NCBI GenBank assembly: GCA_964521425.1
Contig: CAZFRO010000006.1
Span: 46,620 to 110,619, forward strand
From: an uncultured bacterium
GTDB lineage: Bacteria; Joyebacterota; Joyebacteria; Joyebacterales; Joyebacteraceae
Direction: 5' to 3'
Length of the DNA stretch: 64,000 nt
Shown piece by piece: positions 37,761-60,937 of the stretch (its first letter is position 1; every line of letters starts with the position of its first letter). The position numbers and the translations under genes were made by a program. The notes under the pieces were generated by a model. It searched no databases. It was not told the DNA's origin and saw only the letters and a program-made list of their open reading frames with translations.

Positions 37761-37816
37761 CGGCGTCCACCTGATCCTTCGTCGAACGCGAGATCGTTCA
37801 AGGGAGTTGTCACTCG

Positions 37817-39409
37817 ATGTCCCAAAGAACCGCCGTCGAGATGCGAGGTGTAACGAAGCGCTACCCGCGCGTGCTCGCATGCGACGGTGTCGACCTCTCC
37901 GTTTGCCAGGGCGAGATCCACGCCATCATTGGCGAGAACGGGGCAGGCAAGTCGACGCTCATGAAGATCCTCTATGGAATGGTCCGGCCTGATGAGGGTT
38001 CGATCAAGCTCAACGGGAAGCCGCTCATCGGGCACAGCGCCAGCGATTCGATCAAGCTCGGACTCGGTATGGTCCATCAGCATTTCATGCTGATCGATCC
38101 ATTCACGGTCGCCGAGAATGTCGTTCTCGGAGTCGAACCGACCAGAGCGGGCCTCCTCATTGATGGTCGGGCGGCCAGGGAGAGAGTCGAGCGCCTGTCG
38201 ACGGAGTACGGTCTCGCGCTTGACCCGGACGAGCGAATCGAGAATCTGTCCGTGGGGCTCGAGCAGCGCGCCGAGATAGTGAAGGTGCTCTACCGGGGCG
38301 CTGATATCCTGATCCTCGACGAACCGACCGGCGTCCTCACGCCACACGAAGTCACCGAACTCTTCGTCGTCCTCCGGGCGCTTCGCGAGAGCGGCCGGAC
38401 GATCATCTTCATCACACACAAGCTGAACGAGGTCATAGAACTCGCGGACCGCGTCACCGTGATGCGTGACGGCCGCGTGACGGGCGTCGTATCGGCCGCC
38501 GAGACGACACCCGAGGAGCTGGCCAGGATGATGGTCGGGCGCGACGTGCTCCTGAGGGTTGAGCGACAGGAGGCGACGCTCGGCGAACCGATCCTGACGG
38601 TCAGCAAGTTGTCGGCGGTCGGCAGAAAGGGAACTCACGTCCTCGAGAACGTGGATCTTGAGATTCGCTCCGGCGAGATCCTGGGAATAGCCGGTGTTCA
38701 GGGGAACGGACAGACAGAACTCGTGGATGCCATCACGGGGCTTCATGCGACATCGTCGGGGAACGTGACGTTGAGCGGTACGGACATCACGAACCTGAAA
38801 CCGCGTGCAATCCGGGATCTGGGCGTGGCGCACGTTCCGGAGGACAGGTTGGAACGCGGGATCGTGCCGGAGTTCACGGTGGCGGAGAATCTCCTGCTCG
38901 GGCACCATCACCGTGCCGGCTATTCCAGACGAGGCCTTGTCGATGTCGCAAAGATGGAGGAGCATGCCGACACGCTCATAGCCGAACATGATATCAGACC
39001 CGCAGATCCGTCGATCAGCGCCGCCCATCTCTCTGGAGGCAACCAGCAGAAGCTGATAGTCGCCCGGGAGTTCGACGGCGCCCCGACACTCCTTATCGCG
39101 TCGCAGCCGACGCGCGGAGTCGACATAGGGGCTATCGAGTTCGTTCATACGAACATCCTCAAGAAGCGTGACGCCGGTGCGGCCGTGCTGCTCGTCTCGG
39201 CGGAGCTTTCGGAGATCATGACACTGTCGGATCGGATAGCCGTCATGTACGGGGGGCGCATCGTCGCGGAGTTCGAGGGTGGAACTGTGAGCGAGGAGGA
39301 TCTCGGTCGCTACATGACGGGGGCCGGTGATCGCGGAGACGATCGCGATAGCAGCCGCCCGCCAGGTGGCGACTTTCCCGAGCAGACTGCGGCAGGAGGG
39401 GAAGCATGA
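37817..39409 (+). CDS. ABC transporter ATP-binding protein (duplicated ATPase, nucleoside/sugar type)
   Basis: Walker [10 protein letters not shown]. Two signature motifs ([16 protein letters not shown]). 530 aa. Confidence 0.85.
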
Positions 39410-40557
39410 GCCTGCCGGCGGCACTAGGTACGATCACACGAGCCCGCAAGAGTGACGGGACCGGCAGACTTATGAATCTGCTGTCTCCGCTTGTCGCAGT
39501 GCTCGCAGCGTTCCTGGTGGGTGGACTCGTTGTCGCCGCTATCGGCGAAAGCCCTCTCAGGTTCTACTCAATCCTGTTCCGCGGGGCGTTCGGGAGTGTG
39601 GACGGCATCGGACTTGTGCTCTTCAACGCCACGCCCCTCATCTTCGCCGGTCTGGCTGTGGCCTTCGCGTTCCGTTCCGGGCTGTTCAACATCGGAGGCG
39701 AGGGACAGCTCTACATCGGTTCATTTGTCTGCGCGTGGGCGGCCCTCAAGATGCCGGGCGCACCGGCGGTGCTGTTGATTCCGCTCCTCATTCTCGCCTC
39801 CGCTGCAGGCGGAGCGTTTTGGGCGGCGATCCCCGGGTACCTGAAGGCGCGGTTCGGAGTCCACGAAGTCATCAACACGATCATGATGAACTTCATAGCG
39901 GTCGCGCTCACGGGCTATCTCGTTGTCGAGAGGTTCAAGGAGCCCGGACAGATGACGCCGCAGACGGCTGAGATCCCGATCGCGGGAGAGCTACCGCGGC
40001 TGGCGGGCTTCTTCCAGTCAATCGCTGTTCCGCTTCCGAATGCGAATCCGCTGAACGCGTCGTTTCTGATAGCTCTTGTTGCGGTTTGGCTCGCGTGGTT
40101 CATTCTTCACAGAACGACGCTCGGGTATGAAATACGGGCCGTGGGACACAACTCGTCGGCCGCCGAGTACGCCGGCATCAACGTGCGCCGCACGCTCGTG
40201 ATGGCGATGCTTCTGAGCGGGGCCTTCGCCGGTCTTGTGGCGACGAACGAAGTAATGGGGTTCAGGCACAGGTTTCTCGATAATTTCTCGAGCGGCATAG
40301 GCTTCATGGGAATCGCTGTGGCGCTTCTTGGCAGGAACTCCCCTCTGGGAGTTCTGTTTGCAGCGCTCCTGTTCGGTGTTCTGAATACCGGAGCGCTTGA
40401 AGTGGACATCTTCACCGACGTGCCGCGGGAGCTGATACTGGTCGTGCAGGCCGTGACCATCATCCTTGTCGTGGTCGGGAACGAAATAGTGCGGCGCAGA
40501 CTGGCGGGCGGTGCGCAAAAGAGACATCCTTCGAAGGAAGGCGCGGAGGCTTCATGA
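39406..40557 (+). CDS. ABC transporter permease (Bmp-system permease 1)
   Basis: Polytopic. Overlaps the ATPase stop (ATGA). AGGAGGGGA SD. ATG 39472 is an alternative start. Confidence 0.75.
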   Translation: MSLPAALGTITRARKSDGTGRLMNLLSPLVAVLAAFLVGGLVVAAIGESPLRFYSILFRGAFGSVDGIGLVLFNATPLIFAGLAVAFAFRSGLFNIGGEGQLYIGSFVCAWAALKMPGAPAVLLIPLLILASAAGGAFWAAIPGYLKARFGVHEVINTIMMNFIAVALTGYLVVERFKEPGQMTPQTAEIPIAGELPRLAGFFQSIAVPLPNANPLNASFLIALVAVWLAWFILHRTTLGYEIRAVGHNSSAAEYAGINVRRTLVMAMLLSGAFAGLVATNEVMGFRHRFLDNFSSGIGFMGIAVALLGRNSPLGVLFAALLFGVLNTGALEVDIFTDVPRELILVVQAVTIILVVVGNEIVRRRLAGGAQKRHPSKEGAEAS

Positions 40558-42191
40558 GCGACGGTGGGGGACAGGAAGAAAAGCGCGCCAAGGTGAATCA
40601 CTATGAGGCATCTCGGGCGACCGGGATAGTGATCTCGACCGTGTGGGTGATCGGCCTCGCCGTTGCGGCCAAGGCCCTGGCACTCGTCAAGGACATCATC
40701 GTCGCGGCGCGCTTCGGGACGGGTTTCGAGATGGACAGTTATCTCGTGGCTCTCACGATTCCGGGGCTCGTGATAGCGTGGCTTCGTTCACCGATTCGCT
40801 CGGGTTTCGTCCCGCTGTTCACGGAGCGACTGGAGCACGACGGGGAAGAGAGGGCGTGGAATGACGCCGGTATCTTCACAGCCAACCTCCTGCTCATCCT
40901 CTCTCTCATTACCGCGGCTGCTCTGATTCTGGCGCCTGGGCTGGTGTCGCTCGTGGCGCCCGGCTTTGGTGCGTCGAGCCGCGCGCTCGCGACTTCGCTG
41001 ACGCGTGTGATGATCCTCTCCGTACTCTTCTCGGCGATTGCGGGCATGTTTGCGAACATCCTCCACTGCTATCGGAACTTCGCCACCCCCGGACTCGGGC
41101 GCCCCATCAACAACGTCATCATGATTCTGGCAGCTATCTTCCTTACGACGTCACACGGGATCCACGGGTTGGCCTACGGCATCCTCCTGGGCAGTATCGC
41201 GCACGCTGCCGCACTCCTGCCCTCCATCATGCGCCGATCCAAAGGTTTCACGCTCCGCGTCGACTTCAGGCATCCGATGTTCCTCGGTGTCATGCGGCTG
41301 GCGCTTCCTCTCTTCATAGGGATGGCCGGTGCGAAGCTGGACGATGTCGTCGATCGCATCTTCGCCTCGATGCTGGCGGAAGGGAGCATCTCCGGGCTGT
41401 CGTACGCGCTCCGCCTGATAGAGCTGCCGAAGGAGATCCTCATCGTCGGGTTCTCGACGGTGCTCTTCCCGTTCTTCGCCACCATGGCCGCACGCGGCAA
41501 TATCGACGAGCTTGCGGACAAGCTGATGGCCGCAATAAGGATTGCGTTCTTCATCCTCCTCCCTGTCTCCATCGGAATGGCGATGCTGGGCGAGCCCTTC
41601 GTGCGACTCATCTTCCAGCGAGGAGCCTTCGATGATGAGTCGATGAAATTCACAGTGTCCGCGCTTCTACTCTACACGCCCACGATCTGGGCGCTCGGCA
41701 TCTCGAGCATCATGACCTCCGCCTTCGTTGCCATGAAGGACACGAAGCGGCCCGTGGTTGCCGGATTCCTGCGGCTCGGGGTGAAGGTGGGACTTGTCTT
41801 CATCTTCCTACGCATGTTCGAGAGCGCAGGCGTGGCGCTTTCTACTTCCGTCTCGCATGTCTTCAAGCTCGCACTGTTCTTCTTTCTCCTGCCTCGGCAG
41901 CTGAGAGCCGGGCGCTATCCGGCGCTCTTCCGGTCGTTCCTTGCGACCATTCTCACGACTGCAGTGATGGCTGTGGCTCTTCATTTCCTGTCTCCCGTTG
42001 CGATTCGCATAGGACTCAGCGGCGGGTCAATCGGACGGCAGATAGTGGCTCTGGGTGGGATGGGGGCCGTGGGTGTGGGCGTCTACCTTGCCACGGCGCG
42101 GGTCTTCGCGAGAGGTGAACTCGCGGAAACGCTGGAGGCGACCTCGAGCGGTATCGGTGGCATCATCAGACGTGTACGAGGGAAGAAGTAG
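40554..42191 (+). CDS. murJ: lipid II flippase MurJ/MviN family
   Basis: Block-by-block similarity to E. coli MurJ: VKDIIVAARFGTGFEMDSYLVALTIPGLV, LFTERLEHDGEE. About 14 TM. Overlaps the permease stop (ATGA). Confidence 0.8.
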   Translation: MSDGGGQEEKRAKVNHYEASRATGIVISTVWVIGLAVAAKALALVKDIIVAARFGTGFEMDSYLVALTIPGLVIAWLRSPIRSGFVPLFTERLEHDGEERAWNDAGIFTANLLLILSLITAAALILAPGLVSLVAPGFGASSRALATSLTRVMILSVLFSAIAGMFANILHCYRNFATPGLGRPINNVIMILAAIFLTTSHGIHGLAYGILLGSIAHAAALLPSIMRRSKGFTLRVDFRHPMFLGVMRLALPLFIGMAGAKLDDVVDRIFASMLAEGSISGLSYALRLIELPKEILIVGFSTVLFPFFATMAARGNIDELADKLMAAIRIAFFILLPVSIGMAMLGEPFVRLIFQRGAFDDESMKFTVSALLLYTPTIWALGISSIMTSAFVAMKDTKRPVVAGFLRLGVKVGLVFIFLRMFESAGVALSTSVSHVFKLALFFFLLPRQLRAGRYPALFRSFLATILTTAVMAVALHFLSPVAIRIGLSGGSIGRQIVALGGMGAVGVGVYLATARVFARGELAETLEATSSGIGGIIRRVRGKK

Positions 42192-42204
42192 GAGGGCGTG
42201 GGCG

Positions 42205-43107
42205 TTGTTTGAGCTTGTCGTGCTGGACTCTGCTCTCAGGATGGCGACTCCACTCATACTGGCTTCGCTGGGTGGTCTTTTCTCCGAACGCTCCGGCGTG
42301 GTGAACATCGCGCTCGAGGGCATTCTTCTCACCGGAGCCTTCGCGAGCATCCTGGCCACCCACTACACCGGCGACCCATGGATCGGCGTCGCGGCCGGGA
42401 TCTTCGCAGGCATTCTCGTCTCGCTCATACACGCCGCTGTGACGGTCATCTTCAAGGCCGACCAGATAGTGAGCGGTGTCGCCATAAATCTCCTCGCGGC
42501 CGGTGCGACCCAGTTCCTCACGTGGATCACCTGGGGAAGTTCCTCGAACTCACCGTCGGTCGGCGGGATGGCGCGCTGGTCGCTTCCGGAAACATGGGGC
42601 CCCGTCGCGCGCGGGATCAACGTGGTCATCGGGCACTACCCACCTCTCGTCTACGTCGCGCTGGCCGCCGTGGCCGCGGCTCACGTCGTGCTCTGGCACA
42701 CGCCGTTCGGCCTGAGGCTCCGGGCCACCGGCGAACACCCGGCCGCCGTCGACGCGCTGGGAGTTAGTGTAAAGAAGATGCGATTCGCCGGCATACTCCT
42801 GAGTGGAGCGCTCGCCGGATTGGGCGGGGCCTTTCTTGCGCTCAACACGCATCAGTTCGTGAAGAACATGTCGGCCGGACGCGGGTACATCGCTCTCGCA
42901 GCGATGATCTTCGGCAAGTGGAACCCGGTCCGCGCCGCTCTGGCATGTCTGCTCTTCGGGTATGCGGAGGCGGTCCAGATGGGTCTCCAGGGACAGCAGG
43001 TGCCGAGCCAGTTCGTGCAGATGATTCCCTACGTGCTGACGATGGTCGCACTCGTGGGAGTCATCGGAAGAGCCCGTCCGCCGGCAGCGATCGGGAAGCC
43101 ATACTAG
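42205..43107 (+). CDS. ABC transporter permease (Bmp-system permease 2)
   Basis: ATPLILASLGGLFSERSGVVNIALEG, the typical N-terminus of the second nucleoside ABC permease. AGGAGGG sits before TTG 42205. ATG 42241 is an alternative start. Confidence 0.7.
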   Translation: MFELVVLDSALRMATPLILASLGGLFSERSGVVNIALEGILLTGAFASILATHYTGDPWIGVAAGIFAGILVSLIHAAVTVIFKADQIVSGVAINLLAAGATQFLTWITWGSSSNSPSVGGMARWSLPETWGPVARGINVVIGHYPPLVYVALAAVAAAHVVLWHTPFGLRLRATGEHPAAVDALGVSVKKMRFAGILLSGALAGLGGAFLALNTHQFVKNMSAGRGYIALAAMIFGKWNPVRAALACLLFGYAEAVQMGLQGQQVPSQFVQMIPYVLTMVALVGVIGRARPPAAIGKPY

Positions 43108-43187: not shown

Positions 43188-45227
43188 ATGAACAGACTCT
43201 CCAGAACAGCCCTGACGGTGCTTATCGCCACACTGTCCGTCATGGGAATCACGATGCTCGCAGCGACTGCACTTGCCACCGATCTGGCATCGCTGATCGC
43301 TGATGATCCGTATCCTGTTGAATTCGGTGCGGCGCCGCTGCTTGAGCGACCACCCACTGTCACGGGCTTCACAGGCTCGAGGGCGATCATCGAGTTCACG
43401 ACGATTGTGGAGACACCACCCGGTCTCATTCGATTCGGCCCGCTCCACGAGGCTGCTGGAATCGAGCGGCCGGCATACAGGAAGATCACATCAGAGGACA
43501 ACGAGGACTGGACGCGCGAGCACACGATTCTGGTGAACGTCTCGGCACTTGAATCGTCGGCGTACGACTCGAGCTACATGAAGAATGGTGGAGGCGTTGT
43601 CGCGTACCGGCTCGAGGTGTTCGATCCCACGTTCAATGTTGTAAGGACGTTCGACCGCCGCTTCCGCTACTCGCGGTCGGGCGCACGAAGGGACGGGGAG
43701 TACGCGCTGGCAGAGACCATTGTGCTCGGTCCGTGCGTGGACCGCGTCGGACCAGGGTACTTCATTGTGTCCTGGGAGACGGACACACCATCACCCGGAG
43801 GAATCGTCATCAGGGAGGGCGGCGTAGAGCAGGCGATAGCAGGGGGCTTGGAGAACGAGCGGGTCATCGCGGAGAGCGGCGCCTCTCGACGTCATGAGGT
43901 GCTTGTGGCAGGCCTCGCACCCGACACTCGCTACGCATACCGGGTTCAGCACGGCAATGCCAAGCCGCTCACGCGCTGGTACGACGTGCGGACCGCCCCG
44001 GACGCCGGCAGCAGGAAGCCCTTCACTTTTGCGTTTGCCTCAGACTCCCGATCCGGTGCGGGCGGGGGAGAGGAGAGCATCGAGGGCGTCAACTACGCCG
44101 GGCTGAAGGCCGTCCTCGCGGGGGCCAAGGCACACGGCGCGGATCTCTTTCTCTTCGGCGGCGATCTCGTCAACGGTTACACGAGTTCGGAGGAACGCTT
44201 CGTGACCCAGCTCGACTCCTGGCGAAGGGCGTGCGACCAGGTCGCGTTCTCGATGCCGATCTACGAAGGCATGGGCAATCACGAGCAGGTTGGAGACTAC
44301 CTCGAGGTGGCCGATCCTGAGCGCGACGGGAAGGTGATTCTCATGTACCGCGACCGGCCGGGCGAGGACAGCGTGGAGGCTCTCTTCTCGGGGCGGTTCG
44401 TGAATCCCCCGGGAAGCTGTTACGGCAATACCCAGCCCGATAGCGAGCATTCAGACTTCGGGGGCGTGGAGAGGAGCGGACCCGGCTACGGTGAGACCGT
44501 CTACTCCTTCAACTACGACAACTGCCACTTCGTATCGATCAACTCGAACTACTGGGTTACCGGGGTCCACCATTCACACAACACCGCACGTTGGCCCAGC
44601 GATCACGACGGTGTCGCCTACGCGCTCGGCCTCTTCGGGGGCAACAGGGAGGGCTACCTTCTTCCCGGACAGCTCGAGTGGCTTGAGACCGATCTCGACG
44701 TCGCTCAGTCCGATCCCGACATCGACTGGATCTTTGTCTTCACGCACGAGCCGGCCTTCCCGACCGGAGGGCACGCCTACGATGCGATGTTCTGGAGAGA
44801 CGAGGAGCTGACCGGCAACGACGGACTGAACGATTCAAGTGCTCCCAGAGGCGATGTGATCGACATGCGGAACAGGTTCTGGAACATCCTGTCGAGTCAC
44901 GACAAGGTCCTGGCCTTCATGTGTGGAGACGAGCACAACTACAGCCGCACACTCATAGACTCCGATATCCATCCGACCTACGAAACTCCGGTCTGGCACT
45001 TCGTAAGCGGGGGCGCCGGTGCGCCGTTCTACGCGCAGGACACAACGGTTCCGTGGACGGATCACGTGAAAGCCTTCTCTCCGGTCAATCACTACTGCAT
45101 TTTCCACATCGATGGAAAGCGAGTGGGGCTCAGCGTCTACGCGACGAGTGGTGCTCTTGTTGACGAGGTGAAGAACCTCGGTGCTATGGCAGGAAGGAGC
45201 ATTGACTCTACCCCGCAGACCCCCTAG
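43188..45227 (+). CDS. secreted calcineurin-like metallophosphoesterase (purple-acid-phosphatase-like) with N-terminal beta-sandwich domain
   Basis: Signal peptide MNRLSRTALTVLIATLSVMGITMLAATALA. Motifs GGDLVNGY, GMGNHE, FVFTHEPAF and MCGDEHNYSR. Confidence 0.7.
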   Translation: MNRLSRTALTVLIATLSVMGITMLAATALATDLASLIADDPYPVEFGAAPLLERPPTVTGFTGSRAIIEFTTIVETPPGLIRFGPLHEAAGIERPAYRKITSEDNEDWTREHTILVNVSALESSAYDSSYMKNGGGVVAYRLEVFDPTFNVVRTFDRRFRYSRSGARRDGEYALAETIVLGPCVDRVGPGYFIVSWETDTPSPGGIVIREGGVEQAIAGGLENERVIAESGASRRHEVLVAGLAPDTRYAYRVQHGNAKPLTRWYDVRTAPDAGSRKPFTFAFASDSRSGAGGGEESIEGVNYAGLKAVLAGAKAHGADLFLFGGDLVNGYTSSEERFVTQLDSWRRACDQVAFSMPIYEGMGNHEQVGDYLEVADPERDGKVILMYRDRPGEDSVEALFSGRFVNPPGSCYGNTQPDSEHSDFGGVERSGPGYGETVYSFNYDNCHFVSINSNYWVTGVHHSHNTARWPSDHDGVAYALGLFGGNREGYLLPGQLEWLETDLDVAQSDPDIDWIFVFTHEPAFPTGGHAYDAMFWRDEELTGNDGLNDSSAPRGDVIDMRNRFWNILSSHDKVLAFMCGDEHNYSRTLIDSDIHPTYETPVWHFVSGGAGAPFYAQDTTVPWTDHVKAFSPVNHYCIFHIDGKRVGLSVYATSGALVDEVKNLGAMAGRSIDSTPQTP

Positions 45228-45307
45228 AATCTTTGTACCACGTTAGCCATCTTACAGACAACACCACGCGCCGCCCCTTCGGGCGGCCAACGAGGGGGTA
45301 TGCTACG

Positions 45308-46603
45308 ATGAGACGACGCGCAACCAGGGCGTTCCTTGTTCTCTTAGCACTTCCGGTCGTTCTGGCGGGGTGCAGCGAGAGCGAAGTCAATCCGTACGAT
45401 GCGCTACAGGATCCGAATCCACCCGTGGTGACGAGCTTCGTCTACTCCGGAGGAGAGGCCAGCTGGTCGACCGATGAGGAGGCGCTCTGCGTCCTTGAGT
45501 ATGGCCCCGTCGGTGGCGACTACGAGCACTACGTCTACGGGTCCGGGAAGTACCACTCGACATTCCACAGCGTTACGCTCCTCGGCATGGACGAGGGCGT
45601 GGAGTACGCCGTGCGTATCAGGAGTATGGACAGGGCGGGCAACGAGGCGTACGACACCGCGATAGCGCTTCCGGACACAATCGTCGGCGCAGCATTCGGT
45701 GGTGAGACAATGTCCCTTTCCATGATCGATGTGGGATGGGGACTGTCGGAACTGCTTAAGACACCGGGTGGCGAGTACATTCTCATAGACGCCGGCAGCA
45801 ACCAGCTTGATGACCACCATCACATTCATACTGCCGACGTACTCAATTTCCTTGTCACAAAAGATGTCAGCTCGCTCAAGGCTGCGGTAATGACCCATAG
45901 CCACGAGGATCACTACGGGGGACTCTCTGCAGAGGATGGCGTTCTCGACTCTTTTTGGGTAGGCGAGATGATCCTGCCCGACCCGACCACCCTCTACAGG
46001 TCCATTCCGCTGAGTATTCTGGGTAAGGCCGAGGAGCATGACATCCCGATCACATACGTCAAGCAAGGTGACACCTCGGACAGCGTACCCGGTCTGGACT
46101 GGGACGATACGCCAGGATTTCGCGTCCAGGTCCTCTCGGCCGGTGTGGGTGGGACCATCGCAGGGCCAGACGACTCGGCTGCAGAGGGCATGAAGGGTAA
46201 CAACGACTCAGTGGTTCTCCGCATGACGTTCGGGAGTGTCTCCTTCATCACAACGGGTGACGCCGAGCACTTCACGGAGTTCGGGATCATTGATGAGTTT
46301 GGGCGGTTGGGGGCCAGGGCACAGGTTCTTCAGATCGCGCACCACGGCAGCGACGACTCGAGTTCCGAGCAGTGGCTCGAGAACGTGTCGCCGCGTGTCG
46401 CTCTCATCTCGTGTGCGATGGTCGAGAACGCTCTCGTGAAGGAGGTCGTGCTCCAGGGCTGCCGTGCCGTCGATGCCGATTACTTCGTCACGGACAAGGT
46501 GTTCCCGAACATGTCCCGCAGTGCGGATCCTGAGTACGGCAACCTGATCACCATGACAGATGGGGAGTCGATCGAGGTCATGGCGGAGCATCACGACTGG
46601 TAG
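45308..46603 (+). CDS. metallo-beta-lactamase-fold lipoprotein, ComEC/Rec2 C-terminal-domain-like hydrolase
   Basis: Lipobox LAGCSESE. YILIDAGSN, MTHSHEDHYGGL (HxHxDH), TTGDAEH and IAHHGSDDSS blocks, as in the ComEC MBL domain. Confidence 0.7.
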   Translation: MRRRATRAFLVLLALPVVLAGCSESEVNPYDALQDPNPPVVTSFVYSGGEASWSTDEEALCVLEYGPVGGDYEHYVYGSGKYHSTFHSVTLLGMDEGVEYAVRIRSMDRAGNEAYDTAIALPDTIVGAAFGGETMSLSMIDVGWGLSELLKTPGGEYILIDAGSNQLDDHHHIHTADVLNFLVTKDVSSLKAAVMTHSHEDHYGGLSAEDGVLDSFWVGEMILPDPTTLYRSIPLSILGKAEEHDIPITYVKQGDTSDSVPGLDWDDTPGFRVQVLSAGVGGTIAGPDDSAAEGMKGNNDSVVLRMTFGSVSFITTGDAEHFTEFGIIDEFGRLGARAQVLQIAHHGSDDSSSEQWLENVSPRVALISCAMVENALVKEVVLQGCRAVDADYFVTDKVFPNMSRSADPEYGNLITMTDGESIEVMAEHHDW

Positions 46604-46674: not shown

Positions 46675-47649
46675 ATGACCTGGCTCGAGACTCTGAGACG
46701 CAAGAAGTTCATGGACCCGCTCACGGCGGCGCTCTATCTGGTGCCGGCCGCGGTCATTGTCGTGGTCTTCAGGATGGTACCCATCGCCTCGGCGTTCGTC
46801 CTGAGCTTCTTCGATGTCAAGATGGGCAGGATCCGCGGGTTCGTTGGTCTGGCTCAGTACATCAGGCTCTTCCAGGATCCGACGTTCTTCAACTCGCTGG
46901 GAACGACGGCCTACTACGTCGCGGGCGTCGTCCCCGCCAGCCTCTTCCTGTCGCTTCTGGCGGCGGTGCTCCTGAACAAGAAGATCCGGGCGCTCGGCTT
47001 CTACAGAACCGTTTACTTCCTGCCGGTTGTGACGTCGCTCGTGGCCATATCCATGGTGTGGAAGTGGATATTCCATCCGCGGCTGGGGCTACTGAACTAC
47101 GTCTTCGAGATCCTGGGCGGCAACGCGATGCTGTGGCTCGACGAGCCGCGCGGCATCTTCGAGATGATGGCGTCCGGTCTCGGATGGGCGTGGTGGCCGA
47201 ACGGTTTCTCCGGGCCGAGTCTCGCCCTCATCGCCGTCATCATCGTCGCGATATGGCGAGGCATCGGCTACAACATCGTCATCTTCCTGGCAGGGCTTCA
47301 GAACATACCGGATCAGTACTACGAGGCAGCCAGAATAGACGGGGCGAACTCACGAGGGGTCTTCTGGCGGGTCACATGGCCGCTTTTGTCACCGACGACG
47401 TTCTATGTGCTCCTGTCCACGACCATCACATCGTTCCAGGTCTTCACACAGATCTATCTCATGACAGGTCCACCGGTTGGTGGACCGATGGGCACAACGA
47501 AGGTAATCGTCTACTACCTCTTCGAGAAGGGATTCGACGCGGGGGGGAACATGGGATACGCGAGCGCCGTGGCCCTCATTCTCTTCCTCATTATCCTGTC
47601 GCTGACTCTTGTGCAGCGGCGACTCGTCGAGAGCAGGGTCTACTACTAG
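46675..47649 (+). CDS. carbohydrate ABC transporter permease (MalF/UgpA-like)
   Basis: Six TM. EAARIDGAN EAA-loop motif. AAGGACAGG SD. Confidence 0.8.
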   Translation: MTWLETLRRKKFMDPLTAALYLVPAAVIVVVFRMVPIASAFVLSFFDVKMGRIRGFVGLAQYIRLFQDPTFFNSLGTTAYYVAGVVPASLFLSLLAAVLLNKKIRALGFYRTVYFLPVVTSLVAISMVWKWIFHPRLGLLNYVFEILGGNAMLWLDEPRGIFEMMASGLGWAWWPNGFSGPSLALIAVIIVAIWRGIGYNIVIFLAGLQNIPDQYYEAARIDGANSRGVFWRVTWPLLSPTTFYVLLSTTITSFQVFTQIYLMTGPPVGGPMGTTKVIVYYLFEKGFDAGGNMGYASAVALILFLIILSLTLVQRRLVESRVYY

Positions 47650-47708
47650 CGCGCGTACCAGTACAGGTGAGGCACAGCTAGCACGCGTACCAGCACGGGT
47701 GAGGTTCG

Positions 47709-48734
47709 GTGGCTCCAATGGAACAGACAGCGACACTGCACGACAGAGAACTCAACGCCGGCTACCGCATGAAGCGGACAGCGGGCATGGCCGGCGTCTA
47801 TGCGGCCTTGGCCGTGGGTGTTGTGCTCATGATCGTGCCGTTCTGGTGGATGGTCTCGACCTCTCTCAAGTCTCCGCTTGAGATTCTCGAGTTCCCTCCC
47901 ACGTGGATTCCGACGGGGCACTTCGCCGAACTGGCGGATGGAACGTGGGAAGAGGTCTACATCGTTTCGAAGGACAAGATTGCGGGAACCGTGGACGTCA
48001 GGTCGCTGGACGGAGGTATCGAGCGCACGGTCGCCTCGAGCGCGGTCGCGGACAGGATCCGTTTCCGCTTCAGAAACTACGCGGAGGCATGGAGTCAGGC
48101 TCCGTTCGCCAGATACTATTTCAATACGATTCTGATCACCATCTTCGTGGTCATGGGCGTCCTCGTGACATCGTCGCTCGCGGCCTACGCCTTCGCGCGC
48201 ATGAAGTTCTGGGGGAGGGACAACATCTTCCTCATCTTCCTGTCGATGATGATGGTTCCGCAGCCTGTCTATCTGGTTCCGTCCTACATCATTCTCGTGA
48301 AGCTCGGGTGGATTGACACCTATCAGGCTCTGATAGTCCCGTGGTTCGCACACATCTTCAGCATTTTTCTCCTGAGACAGCACTTCAAGACGATACCAAA
48401 CGATCTCTACGATGCCGCGATCATCGACGGCTGCAGCAGGTTCGCATTTCTCTGGCGGGTCATGCTTCCTCTGTCCAAGGCAGTACTCGTCGCGGTTGTC
48501 ATCTTCACGGTCGTGGGAACGTGGAACTCGTTCCTGTGGCCTCTCGTGATGACGAACACGCCGGAAGTGCGACCGCTCCAGGTCGGTCTCGCCCGGTTCT
48601 CACAGGAGCAGGGGACAAGTCACGAACTAATGATGGCGGCGGCTGCCTTCTCGGTTGCACCGCTCATCATCGCCTACTTCTTCGCACAGAAGCAGATAAT
48701 CCAGAGCATGGCCACTTCGGGCTTGAAGGGCTAG
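47709..48734 (+). CDS. carbohydrate ABC transporter permease (MalG/UgpE-like)
   Basis: DAAIIDGCS EAA-loop. MKRTAG at 47769 is an alternative start. Confidence 0.8.
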   Translation: MAPMEQTATLHDRELNAGYRMKRTAGMAGVYAALAVGVVLMIVPFWWMVSTSLKSPLEILEFPPTWIPTGHFAELADGTWEEVYIVSKDKIAGTVDVRSLDGGIERTVASSAVADRIRFRFRNYAEAWSQAPFARYYFNTILITIFVVMGVLVTSSLAAYAFARMKFWGRDNIFLIFLSMMMVPQPVYLVPSYIILVKLGWIDTYQALIVPWFAHIFSIFLLRQHFKTIPNDLYDAAIIDGCSRFAFLWRVMLPLSKAVLVAVVIFTVVGTWNSFLWPLVMTNTPEVRPLQVGLARFSQEQGTSHELMMAAAAFSVAPLIIAYFFAQKQIIQSMATSGLKG

Positions 48735-48785
48735 CAGGAGCATGGCCACGTCGAGCCCTGAGGATCAGTTGATGGAGGAATCGGA

Positions 48786-50081
48786 ATGAAGCACAAGCTC
48801 AAGAAGCACTGGCTGCTGCGGGTTCTCCTCGTGACATCCGTTCTCGCCGTAACGCTTGCCGGGTGTGGTGGTGGGGACGAGGGTGGAGCCGACGGCGTGA
48901 CGCGTCTGCAGTTCTGGCATGCCATGGGGGGGCCGCTCGGTGACGCGCTCGATGTGCTCGTCGCGGAGTTCAACGAGAGTCACAGTGACATCGAGATCCA
49001 GTCGGTGAGCATGGGGCGCTACCAGGCGCTCTCGCAGAAGATCATGGCGTCCGTCGCAGCCGGCGAGCCGCCGGATCTGGCGCAGGTCTACGAGGCGTGG
49101 ACCGAGAACCTGATAGAGAACGGCAGTGCCGCGCCCCTGTCGCCGTATGTCAACGGACCGAACGGGCTTTCGCAGGAAGAACTCGACGACTTCATCCCGG
49201 GCATGATCGCGAACAGCACGTGGGAAGGTGAGATCTACTCGTTCCCCTTCAACAAGAGCGTCCGGGGCCTCTATTGGAACAAGGACGCGTTCGCAGAGGT
49301 GGGTCTCACACGCGCTCCCACGAACTGGGACGAGTATCTCGAGTACGCCAAGAAGCTCACACGCGACACCGACGGGGACGACGAGATCGATCAGTGGGGG
49401 ACGGCGGGGCAGATAAGCGCGTGGATGTTCGAGAACCTGCTCGTCCAGAACGGCGGGAGTATTCTCACAGCCGACGGCACGCGCGCTGCGTTCGATAGCC
49501 CCGAGGGAATCGAAGCCCTCGAGTTCATGGTGGAGCTTCTCACTGAGTACGGGAAGGTGACGTCCGGGTACGAGTACCAGAATGATTTCCAGGCGGGCAA
49601 GATAGGCATGATAGAAGGCTCCACCGTCTCGCTCGCGTTCATGGAGGGCAAATACACGTTCGACATGGCGCTCGCGCCGCTTCCGGAGAATAAGAAGAAG
49701 GCGTCCTTCTTCGCGGGCACCAACGTCGTCATCTTCGCGGATTCATGCGACGAGAACAAGACGGCTGCGTGGGAATTCGTGAAGTGGTTCACGAGTCCCG
49801 AGATCACGGCGCGCTGGGCCGCGATGACCGGGTACGCTCCGGTCAGACAGAGTGCAATGAACCTGCCCGTCATGCAGGAGAGGTTCGCGGAGGTCGAGGG
49901 ACTCGACCGCGTGTTCACGCAGCTCGACTACGCCGCGTTTGAGCCACGGTCCGCGGCCTGGTATGCGGGACGAAAGTACCTTGAGGAGAGCGGTGTCGAG
50001 GCCGCCCTCAGAAAGCAGATGATTCCGAGTGATGCACTGGCAGCCGCAGCAGTGGCCGTCAATGCCGAGCTTGCGCAATAG
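48786..50081 (+). CDS. extracellular solute-binding lipoprotein, family 1 (sugar ABC)
   Basis: Lipobox LAGCGGG. GGAGGAA SD. Typical SBP1 length and motifs. Confidence 0.8.
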   Translation: MKHKLKKHWLLRVLLVTSVLAVTLAGCGGGDEGGADGVTRLQFWHAMGGPLGDALDVLVAEFNESHSDIEIQSVSMGRYQALSQKIMASVAAGEPPDLAQVYEAWTENLIENGSAAPLSPYVNGPNGLSQEELDDFIPGMIANSTWEGEIYSFPFNKSVRGLYWNKDAFAEVGLTRAPTNWDEYLEYAKKLTRDTDGDDEIDQWGTAGQISAWMFENLLVQNGGSILTADGTRAAFDSPEGIEALEFMVELLTEYGKVTSGYEYQNDFQAGKIGMIEGSTVSLAFMEGKYTFDMALAPLPENKKKASFFAGTNVVIFADSCDENKTAAWEFVKWFTSPEITARWAAMTGYAPVRQSAMNLPVMQERFAEVEGLDRVFTQLDYAAFEPRSAAWYAGRKYLEESGVEAALRKQMIPSDALAAAAVAVNAELAQ

Positions 50082-50129: not shown

Positions 50130-51275
50130 ATGACACGACGCGGGAAGCACGGAGCGGTAGCCACGCTGGCACTGGCTGCACTGCTTGTTGCCGGCGTAGT
50201 CGCGGCTCAGGAGTTGACGATCTGCGAGGTGCAGCAGTACGACGCGAGCGGCTACTCACCATACAACGGGGAGACGGTGGCCGTCAGGGGGATTGTTACA
50301 TTCCCGCCGGGGTATGTCGTTCCCGGTGAACCGCCTGGACACACCTCGATGTACATCCAGTCGGGCGGCTGCGGAATCAACGTCTTCTGCTTCGATGAGC
50401 CGGCACTGGTTGACGTGGCACTCGGCGACAGCGTCAGAGTGACCGGTCAGGTCGAGGAGTATGTCGGCTCGAGCGCAGGAGCCACCACCGAGATATTGTG
50501 TGACAGCGGGGCGGACATCGAACTCCTTGTGGAGGGCGCGAGATTCGTAGAGCCGCTTGAACTCACGCTGTCGGATGGAATGATCGGGGAGGATCTCGAG
50601 GGCGTGCTTGTGAGAACTGTCGGAGTCATAACACTCCACCTGGGCTTCAAGATCGAACTCGAGGAACTGGACGACCCCGTTATCTACCAGGGTTACAACG
50701 ACAGCGTGGACTTCAACGTCTATGAAGTTGGGGACACGCTCGATGTGGCAGGAGTCGTCCTTCAGTACGACAGAAACCCACCGTACCTGGAGGGATTCGA
50801 GATCGTGCCACGCTTCCAGAGCGATATGAAGCACTTCGTGCCGTTTCCTCCGCCGTACGTCGGGTTCTCCTCCGATGTGCTGATCTCATTCCGTCAGATC
50901 ACGGCTGTCGACACAGCGGGCATGGCCGTGCTCGGAGACGAGAAGGCGCCTGTCTTCTACCCCGATATCGGGGAGATTCTGCCGATCTACTACAAGGCGC
51001 CTGCCGAGAGCCGCACCATTATGAAGCTCTACGATCTACAGGGCAGACTTGTACGCACGCTTCTGGATGAGGACTACGACGGTTACTCGGGTCTTCCAAA
51101 CCACTACGAGCAGCTCTTCCCGTACACCATGGGTGTGCGAGGCTGGGACGGGCGGGACGATCTCAGGCGGCTGGCTCCGGCCGGCACCTACATCTGTCGC
51201 TTTGAGGCGACGAAGCCGGGCGGGTCGACCGAAGTGGTCACGGCGCCTCTCGTCGTCGGAGCCAGGCTCAAGTGA
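50130..51275 (+). CDS. secreted OB-fold/beta-sandwich module protein (ExeM/NucH N-terminal-like, no nuclease domain) with T9SS CTD
   Basis: AAGGAGGAA SD. Signal peptide. ICEVQQYDASGYSPYNGETVAVRGIVT...MYIQSGGCGINVF...VRVTGQVEEYVGSSAGATTEI. LQYDRNPPYLEGFEIVPRFQSDM. CTD: IYYKAPAESRTIMKLYDLQGRLVRTLLDE...WDGRDDLRRLAPAGTYICRFE. Confidence 0.7.
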   Translation: MTRRGKHGAVATLALAALLVAGVVAAQELTICEVQQYDASGYSPYNGETVAVRGIVTFPPGYVVPGEPPGHTSMYIQSGGCGINVFCFDEPALVDVALGDSVRVTGQVEEYVGSSAGATTEILCDSGADIELLVEGARFVEPLELTLSDGMIGEDLEGVLVRTVGVITLHLGFKIELEELDDPVIYQGYNDSVDFNVYEVGDTLDVAGVVLQYDRNPPYLEGFEIVPRFQSDMKHFVPFPPPYVGFSSDVLISFRQITAVDTAGMAVLGDEKAPVFYPDIGEILPIYYKAPAESRTIMKLYDLQGRLVRTLLDEDYDGYSGLPNHYEQLFPYTMGVRGWDGRDDLRRLAPAGTYICRFEATKPGGSTEVVTAPLVVGARLK

Positions 51276-51313
51276 TTCACCTGCCCGGAGATGAAGCTGA
51301 AAGGACTGAGCGT

Positions 51314-57791: not shown

Positions 57792-57859
57792 CCGAGGCGG
57801 GGGCAATGGATATGAATCGAGAGCAAAGTCAGGGAATCAATAGATTGGGGAGGCAGAAG

Positions 57860-60873: not shown

Positions 60874-60911
60874 CAGCCCTAAGAGGTTCAGTAGCAGCAG
60901 ATTGTGAGATG

Positions 60912-60937
60912 CCCGCCTGGCCGGACGGCCGGGCGGG
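60912..60937 (+). terminator. GC-rich hairpin downstream of 5'-nucleotidase gene (CCCGCC..CCGG ACGG CCGG GCGGG), no U-tract
   Basis: Inverted repeat read directly from the sequence, about 40 nt after the stop. Confidence 0.3.

What the first reader, a model, noticed from the sequence alone, without database searches (positions are those of the whole stretch)
43188..46603. Secreted PAP-like phosphoesterase plus ComEC-type metallo-beta-lactamase lipoprotein as candidate extracellular nucleases
Both proteins have export signals (a signal peptide; a lipobox LAGC). Both carry intact metal-binding motifs: GDLVNGY/GNHE/GDEHNY, and HSHEDH/HHGSDDS. Stand-alone ComEC-C-terminal-like MBL domains are predicted nucleases. 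They sit between the nucleoside importer and the LTD/HhH surface locus.
Basis: partly seen in the sequence, partly recalled or inferred. Interest (0 to 1): 0.5.

Follow-up and report, generated by a model that had tools for sequence, protein, structure and literature searches.

The report
ComEC-like nuclease heads DNA-scavenging operon
An uncultured Eisenbacteria genome encodes two exported metal enzymes, a lipoprotein resembling the DNA-cutting domain of the competence protein ComEC and a purple-acid-phosphatase-like enzyme, inside a gene island for nucleic-acid catabolism, where they probably digest captured DNA or RNA into importable pieces.

Summary

**Gene B (45308-46603)** is a 431-aa lipoprotein: a beta-sandwich followed by a metallo-beta-lactamase (MBL) domain.
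- Its nearest relatives by sequence and by fold are ComEC C-terminal nuclease domains, not beta-lactamases or glyoxalases.
- In eight independent loci, down to 32% identity, B is the first gene of a conserved block: B, two UgpA/E-like permeases, a UgpB-like binding protein, an OB-fold protein, an LTD/OB protein and a PorV-like barrel. An HhH-headed putative outer-membrane barrel follows wherever the locus extends that far.

**Gene A (43188-45227)** is a secreted purple-acid-phosphatase (PAP)/PhoD-like metallophosphoesterase.
- It is an accessory gene, absent beside B in most related loci.
- In other lineages it sits inside xanthine-dehydrogenase/purine-nucleoside-phosphorylase operons.

The whole 64-kb window is a nucleobase and nucleoside catabolism island.

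**Best reading:** B is the envelope nuclease of a nucleic-acid scavenging operon. A and a UshA-like enzyme trim the products to nucleosides.

No enzyme activity has been tested. B may be periplasmic or surface-exposed. The importer's ligand is unresolved.

The parts
43188..45227 (+). Gene A: secreted PAP/PhoD-like metallophosphoesterase, 679 aa
43188..43277 (+). A: Sec signal peptide (aa 1-30, ...ATALA/TD)
   Evidence: Read directly from the sequence. Helix 3-25 with low pLDDT in the model.
43311..43994 (+). A: two N-terminal beta-sandwich (FN3-like) domains; the second matches the PAP N-terminal domain (aa 193-269)
   Evidence: All-beta secondary structure over aa 42-268. Pfam PF16656, aa 193-269. 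FN3 domains among the fold hits.
44022..45170 (+). A: catalytic metallophosphoesterase domain. Motifs: D286-x-R288, G325-D326-x3-G330-Y331, G363-N364-H365-E366, H520, H529, G580-D581-E582-H583.
   Evidence: Column counts over 57 homologues show these residues invariant or at least 90% conserved. D581 is His in 5 of 57.
45202..45230 (+). Sigma-70-like promoter match (TTGACT-17-TAGAAT), 78 nt upstream of B
   Evidence: Matches in the region are not enriched over shuffles, so this is weak. It is consistent with B being the first gene of its block in L005, L006, L007 and L093.
45308..46603 (+). Gene B: lipoprotein with a ComEC-C-terminal-type MBL domain, 431 aa
45308..45373 (+). B: lipoprotein signal peptide, lipobox LAGC, Cys22
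   Evidence: Sequence. A Cys after the signal helix is present in nearly all full-length homologues: 31 of 45 match a strict lipobox, and most of the rest have L-[PFW]-G-C. It is followed by S/A-E/Q-x-E.
45425..45682 (+). B: N-terminal beta-sandwich (FN3/PAP_N-like) domain, aa 40-125
   Evidence: AF2 strands 41-107. Weak PF16656 match, E 0.02. The same module is repeated 8-24 times in giant proteins.
45704..46600 (+). B: MBL domain, aa 133-431. Motifs: D161, H197-x-H199-x-D201-H202, N298-N-x-S301, D318, H345-H346-G-S348.
   Evidence: Invariant columns. Residue-by-residue alignment to the ComEC domain 9ic4. Foldseek TMt 0.84 to 9ic4.
46675..48734 (+). Two CUT1-type ABC permeases, best matched by UgpA (3e-39) and UgpE (1.9e-32)
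   Evidence: 50-85% identical in all related loci.
48786..50081 (+). Lipoprotein substrate-binding protein, UgpB-like
   Evidence: NCBIfam UgpB 5.5e-38 against the next-best carbohydrate SBP at 9e-21. PDB best hits are 7c0t/7c0f (T. thermophilus) at 2.6e-37, tied with the sugar binder 7bvt at 6e-37. Lipobox LAGC.
50130..51275 (+). Secreted 381-aa protein with OB-fold modules and a FlgD_ig-like C-terminal domain
   Evidence: The five-ortholog profile hits the N-terminal part of an EEP nuclease (9sf8), E 1e-4. PF01336 is found in 4 of 5 orthologues. Weak ExeM/NucH N-terminal match.
51272..54346 (+). Secreted 1024-aa protein: DUF5689-like/OB, lamin-tail domain, second OB module, FlgD_ig-like C-terminal domain. 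No nuclease domain found.
54399..55280 (+). PorV/PorQ-family outer-membrane barrel
   Evidence: NCBIfam NF033709 2.2e-21. Ends in ...GLGIKF.
55314..57791 (+). 825-aa protein: signal peptide, two ComEA-like HhH units, then about 620 aa of probable outer-membrane beta-barrel
   Evidence: HHH_3 9.4e-14 and ComEA models 4e-7. No Pfam match for the C-terminal part. C-terminal beta-signal YRIQLDYSW. Conserved in L001, L003 and L093.
57785..59086 (+). BamG/FadL-like outer-membrane barrel
59119..60873 (+). Secreted UshA-like 5'-nucleotidase / cyclic-nucleotide phosphodiesterase
   Evidence: NCBIfam UshA 6.9e-58. Signal peptide.
36747..43107 (+). Bmp/PnrA-type nucleoside ABC importer (lipoprotein SBP, ATPase, two permeases) with a MurJ gene inserted between the permeases
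   Evidence: Synteny in L001 and L003.
33758..35470 (+). Adenine deaminase
   Evidence: TIGR01178 9.3e-200, above the cut-off.

Best explanation
**Proposed mechanism (B's role about 0.55 likely)**
1. Gene B is the nuclease/phosphodiesterase of a conserved nucleic-acid scavenging operon of Candidatus Eisenbacteria and relatives.
2. Surface proteins carrying OB-fold and lamin-tail domains, together with a ComEA-like HhH head on a putative outer-membrane barrel, capture DNA (or RNA).
3. The lipid-anchored B enzyme is a binuclear-metal MBL of the ComEC C-terminal type. It cuts the captured polymer into short oligo- or mononucleotides.
4. A UgpAEB-like ABC importer encoded immediately downstream takes up phosphate-containing products.
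5. The secreted UshA-like nucleotidase, and gene A where it is present, strip phosphate from the remainder.
6. The Bmp-type ABC system imports the resulting nucleosides. They feed the adenine deaminase, xanthine-dehydrogenase, carbamate-kinase and dihydropyrimidine-dehydrogenase genes of the same island.

Gene A is an accessory PAP/PhoD-like phosphomono-/diesterase acting on nucleotides, not the primary nuclease.

**Shown:** gene structures, folds, active-site conservation, nearest relatives, operon conservation, neighbourhood content.

**Inferred:** every enzymatic activity, the substrates, the cellular compartment and the ligand of the importer.
For: **B resembles the ComEC nuclease domain**
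- TIGR00361 ComEC_Rec2, E 2.8e-27.
- The six best PDB sequence hits are all ComEC.
- Foldseek 9ic4: E 7e-19, TMt 0.84.
- Seven of the eight predicted ComEC metal ligands are identical, including the ComEC-typical motif III Asn. All are invariant in 53 homologues.
- ComEC C-terminal domains are Mn2+-dependent endonucleases and 5'-3' exonucleases. They bind DNA weakly on their own and are stimulated by an OB fold or a ComEA domain (PMC8579336, PMC12455585). That matches an operon supplying OB and HhH proteins separately.

**The operon is conserved**
- B, permease, permease, SBP, OB protein, LTD protein and PorV-like barrel (plus the HhH barrel) recur in the window, L001, L003, L005, L006 and L093. 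Truncated copies occur in L007 and L013. B identity ranges from 32 to 59%.
- B comes first, after divergently transcribed genes, in L005, L006, L007 and L093.
- No other nuclease domain was found in the operon.

**The context is nucleic-acid catabolism**
- UshA-like nucleotidase, Bmp nucleoside importer, adenine deaminase, XdhC/FAD subunit, two carbamoyltransferases, a carbamate-kinase-like gene, PreT/PreA-like genes and amidohydrolases.

**Gene A**
- Homologues at 42% identity sit between xanthine dehydrogenase and amidohydrolase + purine nucleoside phosphorylase genes in L010 and L012.
- PPD1, the top Foldseek match, also has an extra N-terminal FN3-like domain. It cleaves diphosphonucleotides, phosphodiesters and DNA in vitro (PMC4062093).

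**The importer**
- All three parts score best against Ugp models.
- The SBP keeps the Tyr (GRYQAL), Glu (QVYEAW), Ser (PFNKS) and Tyr (TGYAPV). These are shared with the T. thermophilus protein and replaced in the sugar binder 7bvt.
- PMC12718374 states that two Tyr and two Ser are phosphate ligands conserved in UgpB, GPC-binding and U3G-dinucleotide-binding proteins but not in glucose binders. My mapping of those residues is by motif and memory, so it is a lead only.
Against: - No activity has been measured for any member of either family.
- Motif II of B is HxHxDH, as in the phosphorylcholine esterase Pce and ordinary Zn-MBLs. The ComEC signature is HxDxDH (PMC8579336). Metal and substrate preference may therefore differ.
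- Pce is the second-best structural match.
- The OB-fold assignments rest on weak scores: E 1e-4 to 5e-6, below Pfam thresholds.
- The barrel nature of the HhH protein is inferred from sequence only.
- The SBP is as similar to a cyclic-oligosaccharide binder (7bvt) as to the T. thermophilus protein.
- Long-range synteny within one phylum can persist without functional coupling.
- A's context is uninformative in three other loci: L008, L009 and L011.
- A full-length B relative at 26% identity (L095) lacks the operon.
Confidence: 0.55

Rival explanations
1. B is a Pce-like or glycerophosphodiesterase-like phosphodiesterase acting on non-nucleic phosphodiesters, such as phosphocholine- or glycerophosphate-decorated polymers or lipid head groups. 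It releases G3P or glycerophosphodiesters for the Ugp-like importer. The OB/LTD/HhH genes would be unrelated adhesins.
For: - Motif II HxHxDH equals that of Pce rather than ComEC (PMC8579336).
- Pce 1wra is the second-best fold match: E 9e-13, TMt 0.64.
- Both permeases and the SBP score best against UgpA, UgpE and UgpB.
Against: - ComEC domains match far better: sequence E 1e-12 against 0.1 for Pce, and TMt 0.84 against 0.64.
- Motif III is Asn, as in ComEC, not the His of Pce.
- No choline-binding repeats were found.
- The operon always carries LTD/OB proteins, and the HhH-headed barrel wherever the locus extends that far. It ends with a 5'-nucleotidase.
- The island has no glycerol-phosphate or lipid catabolism genes.
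Confidence: 0.2
2. B is a detached ComEC nuclease module serving natural transformation. It would degrade the non-transforming strand alongside a ComEC that lacks its own MBL domain, with the HhH protein acting as ComEA.
For: - The closest characterised relatives act in competence.
- ComEC proteins without the Lactamase_B domain are common, and the domain has been gained and lost repeatedly (PMC6299819).
- ComEA-like HhH units are encoded in the same operon.
Against: - No competence-channel, pilus, DprA or ComF gene was detected in the 64-kb window or the related loci.
- Every neighbour is catabolic or a transporter.
- B is co-transcribed with an ABC importer, not a channel.
- Whether the genome encodes an MBL-less ComEC could not be tested here.
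Confidence: 0.1
3. A is a general phosphate-scavenging phosphatase or phytase (PhoD/PAP type) with no specific link to nucleic acid or to B. Its position here would be incidental.
For: - A is absent beside B in most related loci.
- Three homologue contexts are uninformative.
Against: - There are two independent gene arrangements tying the family to purine and nucleoside catabolism: next to the nucleoside importer here and in L003/L004, and inside Xdh-PNP operons in L010 and L012.
- The best Foldseek match, PPD1, is a nucleotide-directed PAP (PMC4062093).
Confidence: 0.3

Closest known systems
ComEC C-terminal beta-lactamase-like nuclease domain (Moorella thermoacetica / M. glycerini, PDB 9ic4; B. 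subtilis ComEC)
   Same: - MBL fold: TMt 0.84, 25% identity.
- Shared motifs: motif I Asp, motif III Asn (NNxS), motif IV Asp, motif V HHGS.
- Located outside the cytoplasmic membrane.
- Expected binuclear-metal hydrolysis of DNA phosphodiesters.
- Dependent on a separate DNA-binding module (PMC8579336, PMC12455585).
   Different: - B is a free-standing lipoprotein, with no competence channel and no DUF4131 OB domain in the same polypeptide.
- It carries an FN3-like domain instead.
- Motif II is HxHxDH, not HxDxDH.
- Its genomic context is catabolic.
Pce/CbpE teichoic-acid phosphorylcholine esterase (PDB 1wra)
   Same: A secreted stand-alone MBL phosphodiesterase with the HxHxDH motif. It is the second-best fold match.
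   Different: - Much weaker similarity: sequence E 0.1 and TMt 0.64.
- Pce has His at motif III.
- Pce has choline-binding repeats, which B lacks.
'DNA-degradation loci' of Candidatus Izemoplasmatales, and ExeM/NucH-type extracellular nucleases
   Same: - Secreted nuclease functions co-localise with nucleotidases, transporters and a large protein carrying nucleic-acid-binding and lamin-tail domains (PMC8289736).
- The OB modules here resemble the N-terminal part of ExeM/NucH and EEP nucleases.
   Different: - Those loci use EEP or other classical nuclease domains fused to the LTD/OB protein.
- Here the LTD/OB proteins have no nuclease domain, and the candidate nuclease is a separate ComEC-type MBL.
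- The importer here is Ugp-like.
- Outer-membrane barrels are part of this operon.
Haloarchaeal Hvo_1477 relatives carrying a COG2333 MBL domain
   Same: Surface lipoproteins implicated in growth on extracellular DNA. Some homologues carry a ComEC-like MBL domain (PMC3929857).
   Different: - The demonstrated factor, Hvo_1477, is a thermonuclease-domain protein.
- The role of the MBL domain there is untested.
- Different domain architecture and a different domain of life.
Purple acid phosphatases (kidney bean PAP, lupin PPD1) and B. subtilis PhoD
   Same: - N-terminal FN3-like domain plus metallophosphoesterase core.
- Conserved motif I Asp, GD, GNHE, motif IV His and the last His.
- PPD1 also has an extra N-terminal FN3-like domain and cleaves nucleotide pyrophosphate/phosphodiester bonds and DNA in vitro (PMC4062093).
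   Different: - Only 13-22% identity, and no PDB hit by sequence.
- Motif I is DxR, not DxG.
- Tyr lies at +5 from the bridging Asp rather than +3.
- Motif V is GDxH, not GHxH.
- An additional invariant His529.
- No PhoD Pfam match.
UgpBAE glycerol-phosphate importer and the T. thermophilus U3G (dinucleotide)-binding CUT1 protein
   Same: - Best family-model matches for all three importer parts.
- Top PDB hit is the 7c0t/7c0f series. From memory, these entries are the dinucleotide-binding protein of Chandravanshi et al. 2021, which is cited in PMC12718374.
   Different: - All scores are far below the equivalog cut-offs.
- There is equal similarity to a cyclic-oligosaccharide binder (7bvt).
- The ligand is unknown.
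- No ATPase gene is in the operon.

Membership tests
ComEC/Rec2 (TIGR00361) full-length competence protein | Polytopic competence channel domain, and a whole-protein score above the cut-off | tested here: not met
   B is 431 aa, and its only hydrophobic helix is the signal peptide. It scores 95.2 bits against a cut-off of 190, matching model positions 440-633 only.
ComEC C-terminal MBL (COG2333-type) domain | MBL alpha-beta/beta-alpha fold closest to ComEC domains | tested here: met
   Foldseek 9ic4: E 7e-19, TMt 0.84. PDB sequence hits 1-6 are all ComEC.
ComEC C-terminal MBL (COG2333-type) domain | Motif III Asn in place of His (NNxS), motif IV Asp, motif V HHGS | tested here: met
   N298, S301, D318, H345 and H346 are invariant in 53 sequences and align to NNNS / D / HHGS of 9ic4 (PMC8579336).
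ComEC C-terminal MBL (COG2333-type) domain | Motif II HxDxDH (Asp replacing the second His) | tested here: not met
   B has H197-S-H199-E-D201-H202. Position 199 is His in 52 of 53 homologues. 9ic4 has HPDADH (PMC12455585).
ComEC C-terminal MBL (COG2333-type) domain | Metal-dependent DNase activity | not testable with these tools
   Needs recombinant protein.
Class B beta-lactamases / glyoxalase II | Significant sequence or fold similarity ranking above other MBL clades | tested here: not met
   NDM and other lactamases reach only E 0.15-0.5 by sequence. By fold, glyoxalase II and NDM reach E 4e-4 or worse, ranked 47th or lower. bla models fall far below their cut-offs.
Pce/CbpE phosphorylcholine esterase | MBL with motif III His, plus choline-binding repeats | tested here: not met
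   Motif III is Asn298. No choline-binding repeat was found in Pfam. Sequence E is 0.1.
Bacterial lipoprotein | Signal peptide ending in a lipobox with invariant Cys | tested here: met
   LAGC at aa 19-22. The Cys is conserved in nearly all full-length homologues. Lipidation itself is not testable here.
Purple acid phosphatase | Five motifs: DxG, GDxxY, GNH(D/E), VxxH, GHxH (seven ligands) | tested here: inconclusive
   GD, GNHE, motif IV His520 and the final His583 are present and invariant. Motif I is DxR, Tyr331 is at +5, and motif V is GDEH with Asp581 (His in 5 of 57). PPD1 ligand list from PMC4062093.
Purple acid phosphatase | N-terminal FN3-like domain plus metallophosphoesterase core, with PAPs as the nearest fold | tested here: met
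PhoD alkaline phosphatase/phosphodiesterase | PhoD / PhoD_N Pfam match; Tat signal | tested here: not met
Mre11/SbcD-type metallophosphoesterase nucleases | Nearest fold among the metallophosphoesterases | tested here: not met
Nucleic-acid ('DNA-degradation') utilisation locus | Co-localised secreted nuclease candidate, nucleotidase, DNA-binding surface proteins and nucleoside/nucleobase transport and catabolism | tested here: met
   Concept from PMC8289736. Function was not tested.

The most novel reading that the evidence does not exclude
The B-headed operon is a self-contained catabolic DNA-uptake machine that reuses the parts of the competence apparatus without the ComEC channel.
1. OB/LTD surface proteins catch DNA.
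2. An outer-membrane barrel with a ComEA-like HhH head passes the DNA inward.
3. A free ComEC-type MBL lipoprotein chops it.
4. A UgpB-clade ABC importer takes up the resulting di- or oligonucleotides intact.

This would be a polysaccharide-utilisation-locus analogue for nucleic acids, and a rare bacterial (oligo)nucleotide importer.
Probability: 0.25. Interest if true: 0.8.

Novelty: new variant of a known kind. Interest (0 to 1): 0.55.

Why it matters
Extracellular DNA is a major phosphorus, nitrogen and carbon pool in sediments and soils. Some demonstrated DNA consumers, such as the Fusibacteraceae in PMC8289736, carry no recognisable extracellular nuclease gene.

- A stand-alone ComEC-type MBL acting as the nuclease of a conserved scavenging operon would add a nuclease class that current screens for DNA degraders do not count.
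- It would give a predicted nutritional niche to Candidatus Eisenbacteria, an uncultured phylum.
- It would show the OB + MBL + HhH logic of the competence machinery redeployed for catabolism.
- If the Ugp-like importer carries nucleotides or dinucleotides, that would be an unusual transport activity with a directly testable binding protein.

Tried and rejected
**Rejected after testing**
- Beta-lactamase or glyoxalase identity for B.
- A hidden nuclease domain in the LTD protein or the HhH protein: none found, even at E<=1.
- Mre11-type nuclease identity for A.
- A and B as an obligate pair.

**Led nowhere**
It returned mostly MBL-only or ComEC hits from many phyla, with only one informative locus (L013). 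A phylum-wide tally of operon conservation was therefore not possible.
- The afdb50 fold library was unavailable.
- The promoter/terminator scan found no more sites than shuffled sequence. The site upstream of B is therefore only suggestive.
- tRNA and Rfam scans of the window were empty.
- Literature searches found nothing on Eisenbacteria nucleic-acid metabolism or on stand-alone ComEC-type nucleases in catabolic loci.
- The SBP ligand could not be resolved, because the best PDB hits tie between a phosphate-ester binder and a sugar binder.
- A sequence search of A against the PDB gave no hit.
- Whether the genome has its own ComEC could not be examined.

Full report
**1.

The interval contains two co-directional genes on the + strand.

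Gene A (43188-45227, 679 aa):
- It begins with a Sec-type signal peptide ending ATALA/TD.
- It contains GDLVNGY, GNHE and GDEHNY exactly as reported.

Gene B (45308-46603, 431 aa):
- The mechanical ORF starts at 45233, but all homologues start at the MRRR codon.
- It has the lipobox LAGC (Cys22), HSHEDH and HHGSDDS.

Pfam assigns A to Metallophos (E 4e-7) plus the purple-acid-phosphatase N-terminal domain (E 1e-6, 0.6 bit under the gathering score). It assigns B to Lactamase_B (E 4e-5). Homologues named by their sources are 'Candidatus Eisenbacteria bacterium', a candidate phylum.

**2. What B is**

*Nearest relatives*
- NCBIfam's best model for B is ComEC/Rec2. The E-value is 2.8e-27, confined to the MBL part of that model and below the whole-protein cut-off.
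- Against all PDB sequences, the six best hits are ComEC proteins or their isolated beta-lactamase-like domains (best 9ic4, E 1.1e-12). Pce/CbpE reaches E 0.1 and the NDM-type lactamases reach E 0.15-0.5.
- An AlphaFold model built on 53 homologues is confident (pLDDT 91.0). It shows a signal helix, a beta-sandwich (aa 40-125) and an MBL domain (aa 133-431).
- Foldseek against the PDB ranks the Moorella glycerini ComEC domain first (E 7e-19, TM 0.84 on the target). Pce comes second (9e-13, TM 0.64). RNase J, CPSF73 and other nucleic-acid MBLs follow. Glyoxalase II and NDM-1 appear only at E >= 4e-4.

*Active site*
- Invariant across the family: D161, H197, D201, H202, N298, S301, D318, E320, H345 and H346.
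- The residue-level alignment to 9ic4 gives identity at motif I Asp, motif III Asn (NNxS), motif IV Asp and motif V HHGS.
- There is one systematic difference. Motif II is HxHxDH (His199 in 52 of 53 sequences), whereas ComEC has HxDxDH.
- Silale et al. (PMC8579336) single out the motif II Asp and the motif III Asn as the two departures of ComEC from Pce. B therefore has one ComEC-type and one Pce-type feature.
- ComEC C-terminal domains are experimentally Mn2+-dependent phosphodiesterases. They act as endonuclease plus 5'-3' exonuclease, have no phosphomonoesterase activity, and bind DNA very weakly. Their activity rises markedly when an OB fold or a ComEA DNA-binding domain is attached (PMC8579336, PMC12455585).

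*Family size*
- An exhaustive search of 1.84 billion representatives found 25,464 relatives at E <= 1e-3.
- Only 37 reached E <= 1e-30, and these include giant proteins that match only through repeats of the N-terminal module.
- Roughly thirty clusters among the 150 listed hits share the full beta-sandwich + MBL architecture at about 400-470 aa.
- The N-terminal module also occurs as an 8-24-fold repeat in giant proteins.

**3. B heads a conserved operon**

Loci carrying B relatives at 32-59% identity all show the same order:

B, two CUT1 permeases, SBP, ~350-aa OB protein, ~1000-aa LTD protein, ~290-aa PorV-like barrel, ~820-aa HhH protein.

- The loci are L001, L003, L005, L006, L007, L013 and L093. 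L007 and L013 run off the contig.
- In L005, L006, L007 and L093 the genes immediately upstream of B are on the opposite strand. B is therefore the first gene of the unit.
- The Bmp-type nucleoside importer remains nearby but is separate in those loci.
- In the window, a sigma-70-like match lies 78 nt upstream of B. The scan as a whole is not enriched over shuffles.
- A full-length relative at 26% identity (L095) is not followed by the ABC operon genes.

Every product of the block has a signal peptide. B, the SBP and the Bmp protein are lipoproteins, and the barrels end in F or W.

*The downstream proteins*
- **381-aa protein.** A five-ortholog profile hits the N-terminal module of an endonuclease/exonuclease/phosphatase-family structure (9sf8, E 1e-4). 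The OB-fold family PF01336 is found in 4 of 5 orthologues (best 5e-6), and there is a weak ExeM/NucH N-terminal match.
- **1024-aa protein.** It has a lamin-tail domain (1.3e-12), DUF5689-like and OB modules (sub-threshold) and a FlgD_ig-like C-terminal domain. No nuclease domain appears, even at E <= 1.
- **825-aa protein.** It has two ComEA-type HhH units. About 620 residues follow with no family match, ending in an outer-membrane beta-signal (YRIQLDYSW). Reading this as a barrel is an inference.
- **End of the block.** It closes with a BamG/FadL-like barrel and a secreted UshA-like 5'-nucleotidase (6.9e-58).

B is thus the only recognisable phosphodiesterase of polymers in an operon otherwise made of DNA-binding, outer-membrane, import and nucleotidase functions.

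**4. The importer**

- Both permeases and the SBP score best against UgpA (3e-39), UgpE (1.9e-32) and UgpB (5.5e-38). All are far under the equivalog cut-offs. The next-best SBP model, a carbohydrate binder, scores 9e-21.
- In the PDB, the SBP's best hits are the 7c0t/7c0f series from Thermus thermophilus (2.6e-37). These are tied with the cyclic maltosyl-maltose binder 7bvt (6.2e-37), followed by UgpB/UspB proteins at about 1e-28 (7bvt identified in PMC13084667).
- From memory, the 7c0f series is the uridylyl-3'-5'-phosphoguanosine (dinucleotide)-binding protein of Chandravanshi et al. 2021. PMC12718374 cites that work. It states that two Tyr and two Ser contacting the phosphate are strictly conserved in UgpB, GPC-binding and U3G-binding proteins, but not in glucose binders.
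- In the alignments, the window SBP shares with the Thermus protein the Tyr of G-x-Y-x-x-L, the Glu of the QVYE/QAFE segment (only the window SBP has Tyr before it), the Ser of PFNKS and the Tyr of TGY-x-PV. 7bvt has Ser, Leu, Asn and Met at those places.
- My mapping of these onto the published ligand numbers is by motif and recollection of E. coli UgpB. I treat it as a lead that the importer carries a phosphate ester, not as a test.

**5. What A is**

*Fold*
- A has no PDB relative detectable by sequence.
- Its model (pLDDT 90.6) shows two N-terminal beta-sandwiches and a metallophosphoesterase core.
- Foldseek ranks lupin PPD1 first (1.7e-19), then PhoD (2.4e-17), then kidney-bean PAP (3e-16).

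*Active site across 57 homologues*
- D286 (56 of 57) and R288, G325-D326, G330, N364 (56 of 57), H365, H520, H529, E582 and H583 are invariant or nearly so.
- Relative to the PAP ligand set given for PPD1 (PMC4062093), motif I is DxR, the Tyr lies five rather than three residues after the bridging Asp, and motif V is GDxH (Asp581, His in 5 of 57).
- A is therefore a divergent PAP/PhoD-like enzyme, not a canonical member of either family.
- PPD1 is notable for having an extra N-terminal FN3-like domain, as A does. It cleaves diphosphonucleotides and phosphodiesters and, in vitro, DNA (PMC4062093).

*Context*
- A lies between the nucleoside importer and B in the window and in L003/L004.
- It is absent there in L001/L002, L005-L007, L013 and L093.
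- Homologues at 42% identity (P0170, P0178) sit in a different arrangement: AllF, AllG, three xanthine-dehydrogenase subunits, A, amidohydrolase, purine nucleoside phosphorylase.
- Three other contexts are uninformative.
- Two independent arrangements beside purine and nucleoside genes support a role in releasing nucleosides from nucleotides. Nothing supports A as the primary nuclease.

**6. The wider window**

The whole 64 kb is a nucleobase and nucleoside catabolism island.
- PreT/PreA-like dihydropyrimidine dehydrogenase and amidohydrolases lie at the 5' end.
- XdhC, a molybdopterin-dehydrogenase FAD subunit, MobA, two carbamoyltransferase paralogues and a carbamate-kinase-like gene follow.
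- Adenine deaminase scores 9e-200, above the cut-off.
- Then come an MFS transporter and the Bmp-type ABC importer.

**7. Mechanism proposed, and its status**

*Shown:* folds, conserved metal sites, nearest relatives, export signals, operon conservation and neighbourhood.

*Inferred:* B cuts captured DNA or RNA. The OB/LTD/HhH proteins supply the DNA affinity that ComEC-type MBL domains lack. The UshA-like enzyme and A dephosphorylate the products. The two ABC systems import phosphate-bearing fragments and nucleosides respectively.

The compartment is open.
- In a diderm, B could face the periplasm like the ComEC C-terminal domain.
- Alternatively it could be surface-exposed. The conserved acidic residues right after the lipidated Cys (S-E-x-E) recall, from memory, the Bacteroidota lipoprotein export signal. 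This is a lead only.

**8. Rivals**
- A Pce-like or glycerophosphodiesterase role feeding a true Ugp system (0.2).
- A detached ComEC nuclease working in transformation (0.1).
- For A, a general phosphate-scavenging phosphatase (0.3).

**9. Novelty**

*Already known*
- ComEC MBL nuclease activity is established.
- DNA-degradation loci with LTD/OB proteins, nucleotidases and transporters have been described in Izemoplasmatales (PMC8289736).
- Haloarchaeal surface nucleases sometimes carry a COG2333 domain (PMC3929857).

*Not found described*
- A free-standing ComEC-type MBL lipoprotein as the lead gene of a conserved operon. That operon combines a UgpB-clade importer, nuclease-less OB/LTD proteins and an HhH-headed outer-membrane protein.

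I rate it a new variant of a known kind, of moderate interest. That is higher than the two enzymes alone would merit, because of the operon they reveal. It is held down because nothing is biochemically tested and several domain assignments are weak.

Noticed in passing
window 55314-57791 (+): An 825-aa protein joins two ComEA-like HhH DNA-binding units to about 620 residues that match no Pfam family, even at E<=1. It ends in an outer-membrane beta-signal (…YRIQLDYSW). It may be an outer-membrane barrel with a DNA-binding head. It is conserved in L001, L003 and L093.
   Followed up: partly
window 40554-42191 (+): A MurJ-family flippase gene is inserted between the two permease genes of the Bmp-type nucleoside ABC importer in the window, L001 and L003. 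It is not there in L005/L006. I found no explanation.
   Followed up: no
window 46675-50081 (+): The UgpAEB-like ABC importer has no ATPase gene in the operon. Its permeases are much better conserved across loci (50-85% identity) than B itself (32-59%).
   Followed up: partly
window 5371-15447 (+), 50130-54346 (+): A 1906-aa beta-helix protein, three cohesin-domain proteins and both OB/LTD proteins all end in the same FlgD_ig-like C-terminal domain. PorV/PorQ-like barrels are encoded nearby. This looks like the lineage's secretion or anchoring tag, T9SS-like.
   Followed up: no
window 1310-3873, 17058-22031, 27371-33754 (+): The window also carries PreT/PreA-like dihydropyrimidine dehydrogenase, amidohydrolases, MobA, XdhC, a molybdopterin-dehydrogenase FAD subunit, two OTCase-like carbamoyltransferases and a carbamate-kinase-like gene. 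Together these form an anaerobic purine/pyrimidine catabolism island around the finding.
   Followed up: partly
window 60873-63215: About 2.3 kb has no ORF longer than 130 aa and no tRNA or Rfam match. A near-consensus sigma-70-like promoter (TGGACA-17-TATAAT with an extended TG) sits at 61018-61046.
   Followed up: no
window 45425-45682 (B aa 40-125): The N-terminal beta-sandwich of B is homologous to a module repeated 8-24 times in giant (1,100-6,300 aa) proteins found in the representative search. It also weakly resembles the PAP N-terminal domain that A carries.
   Followed up: no
L010 7001-8953, L012 7001-8959: Homologues of A (42% identity) are embedded in AllF-AllG-xanthine dehydrogenase-amidohydrolase-purine nucleoside phosphorylase operons in other metagenomic lineages. 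It is unusual to find a secreted-type phosphoesterase inside an otherwise cytoplasmic pathway operon.
   Followed up: partly
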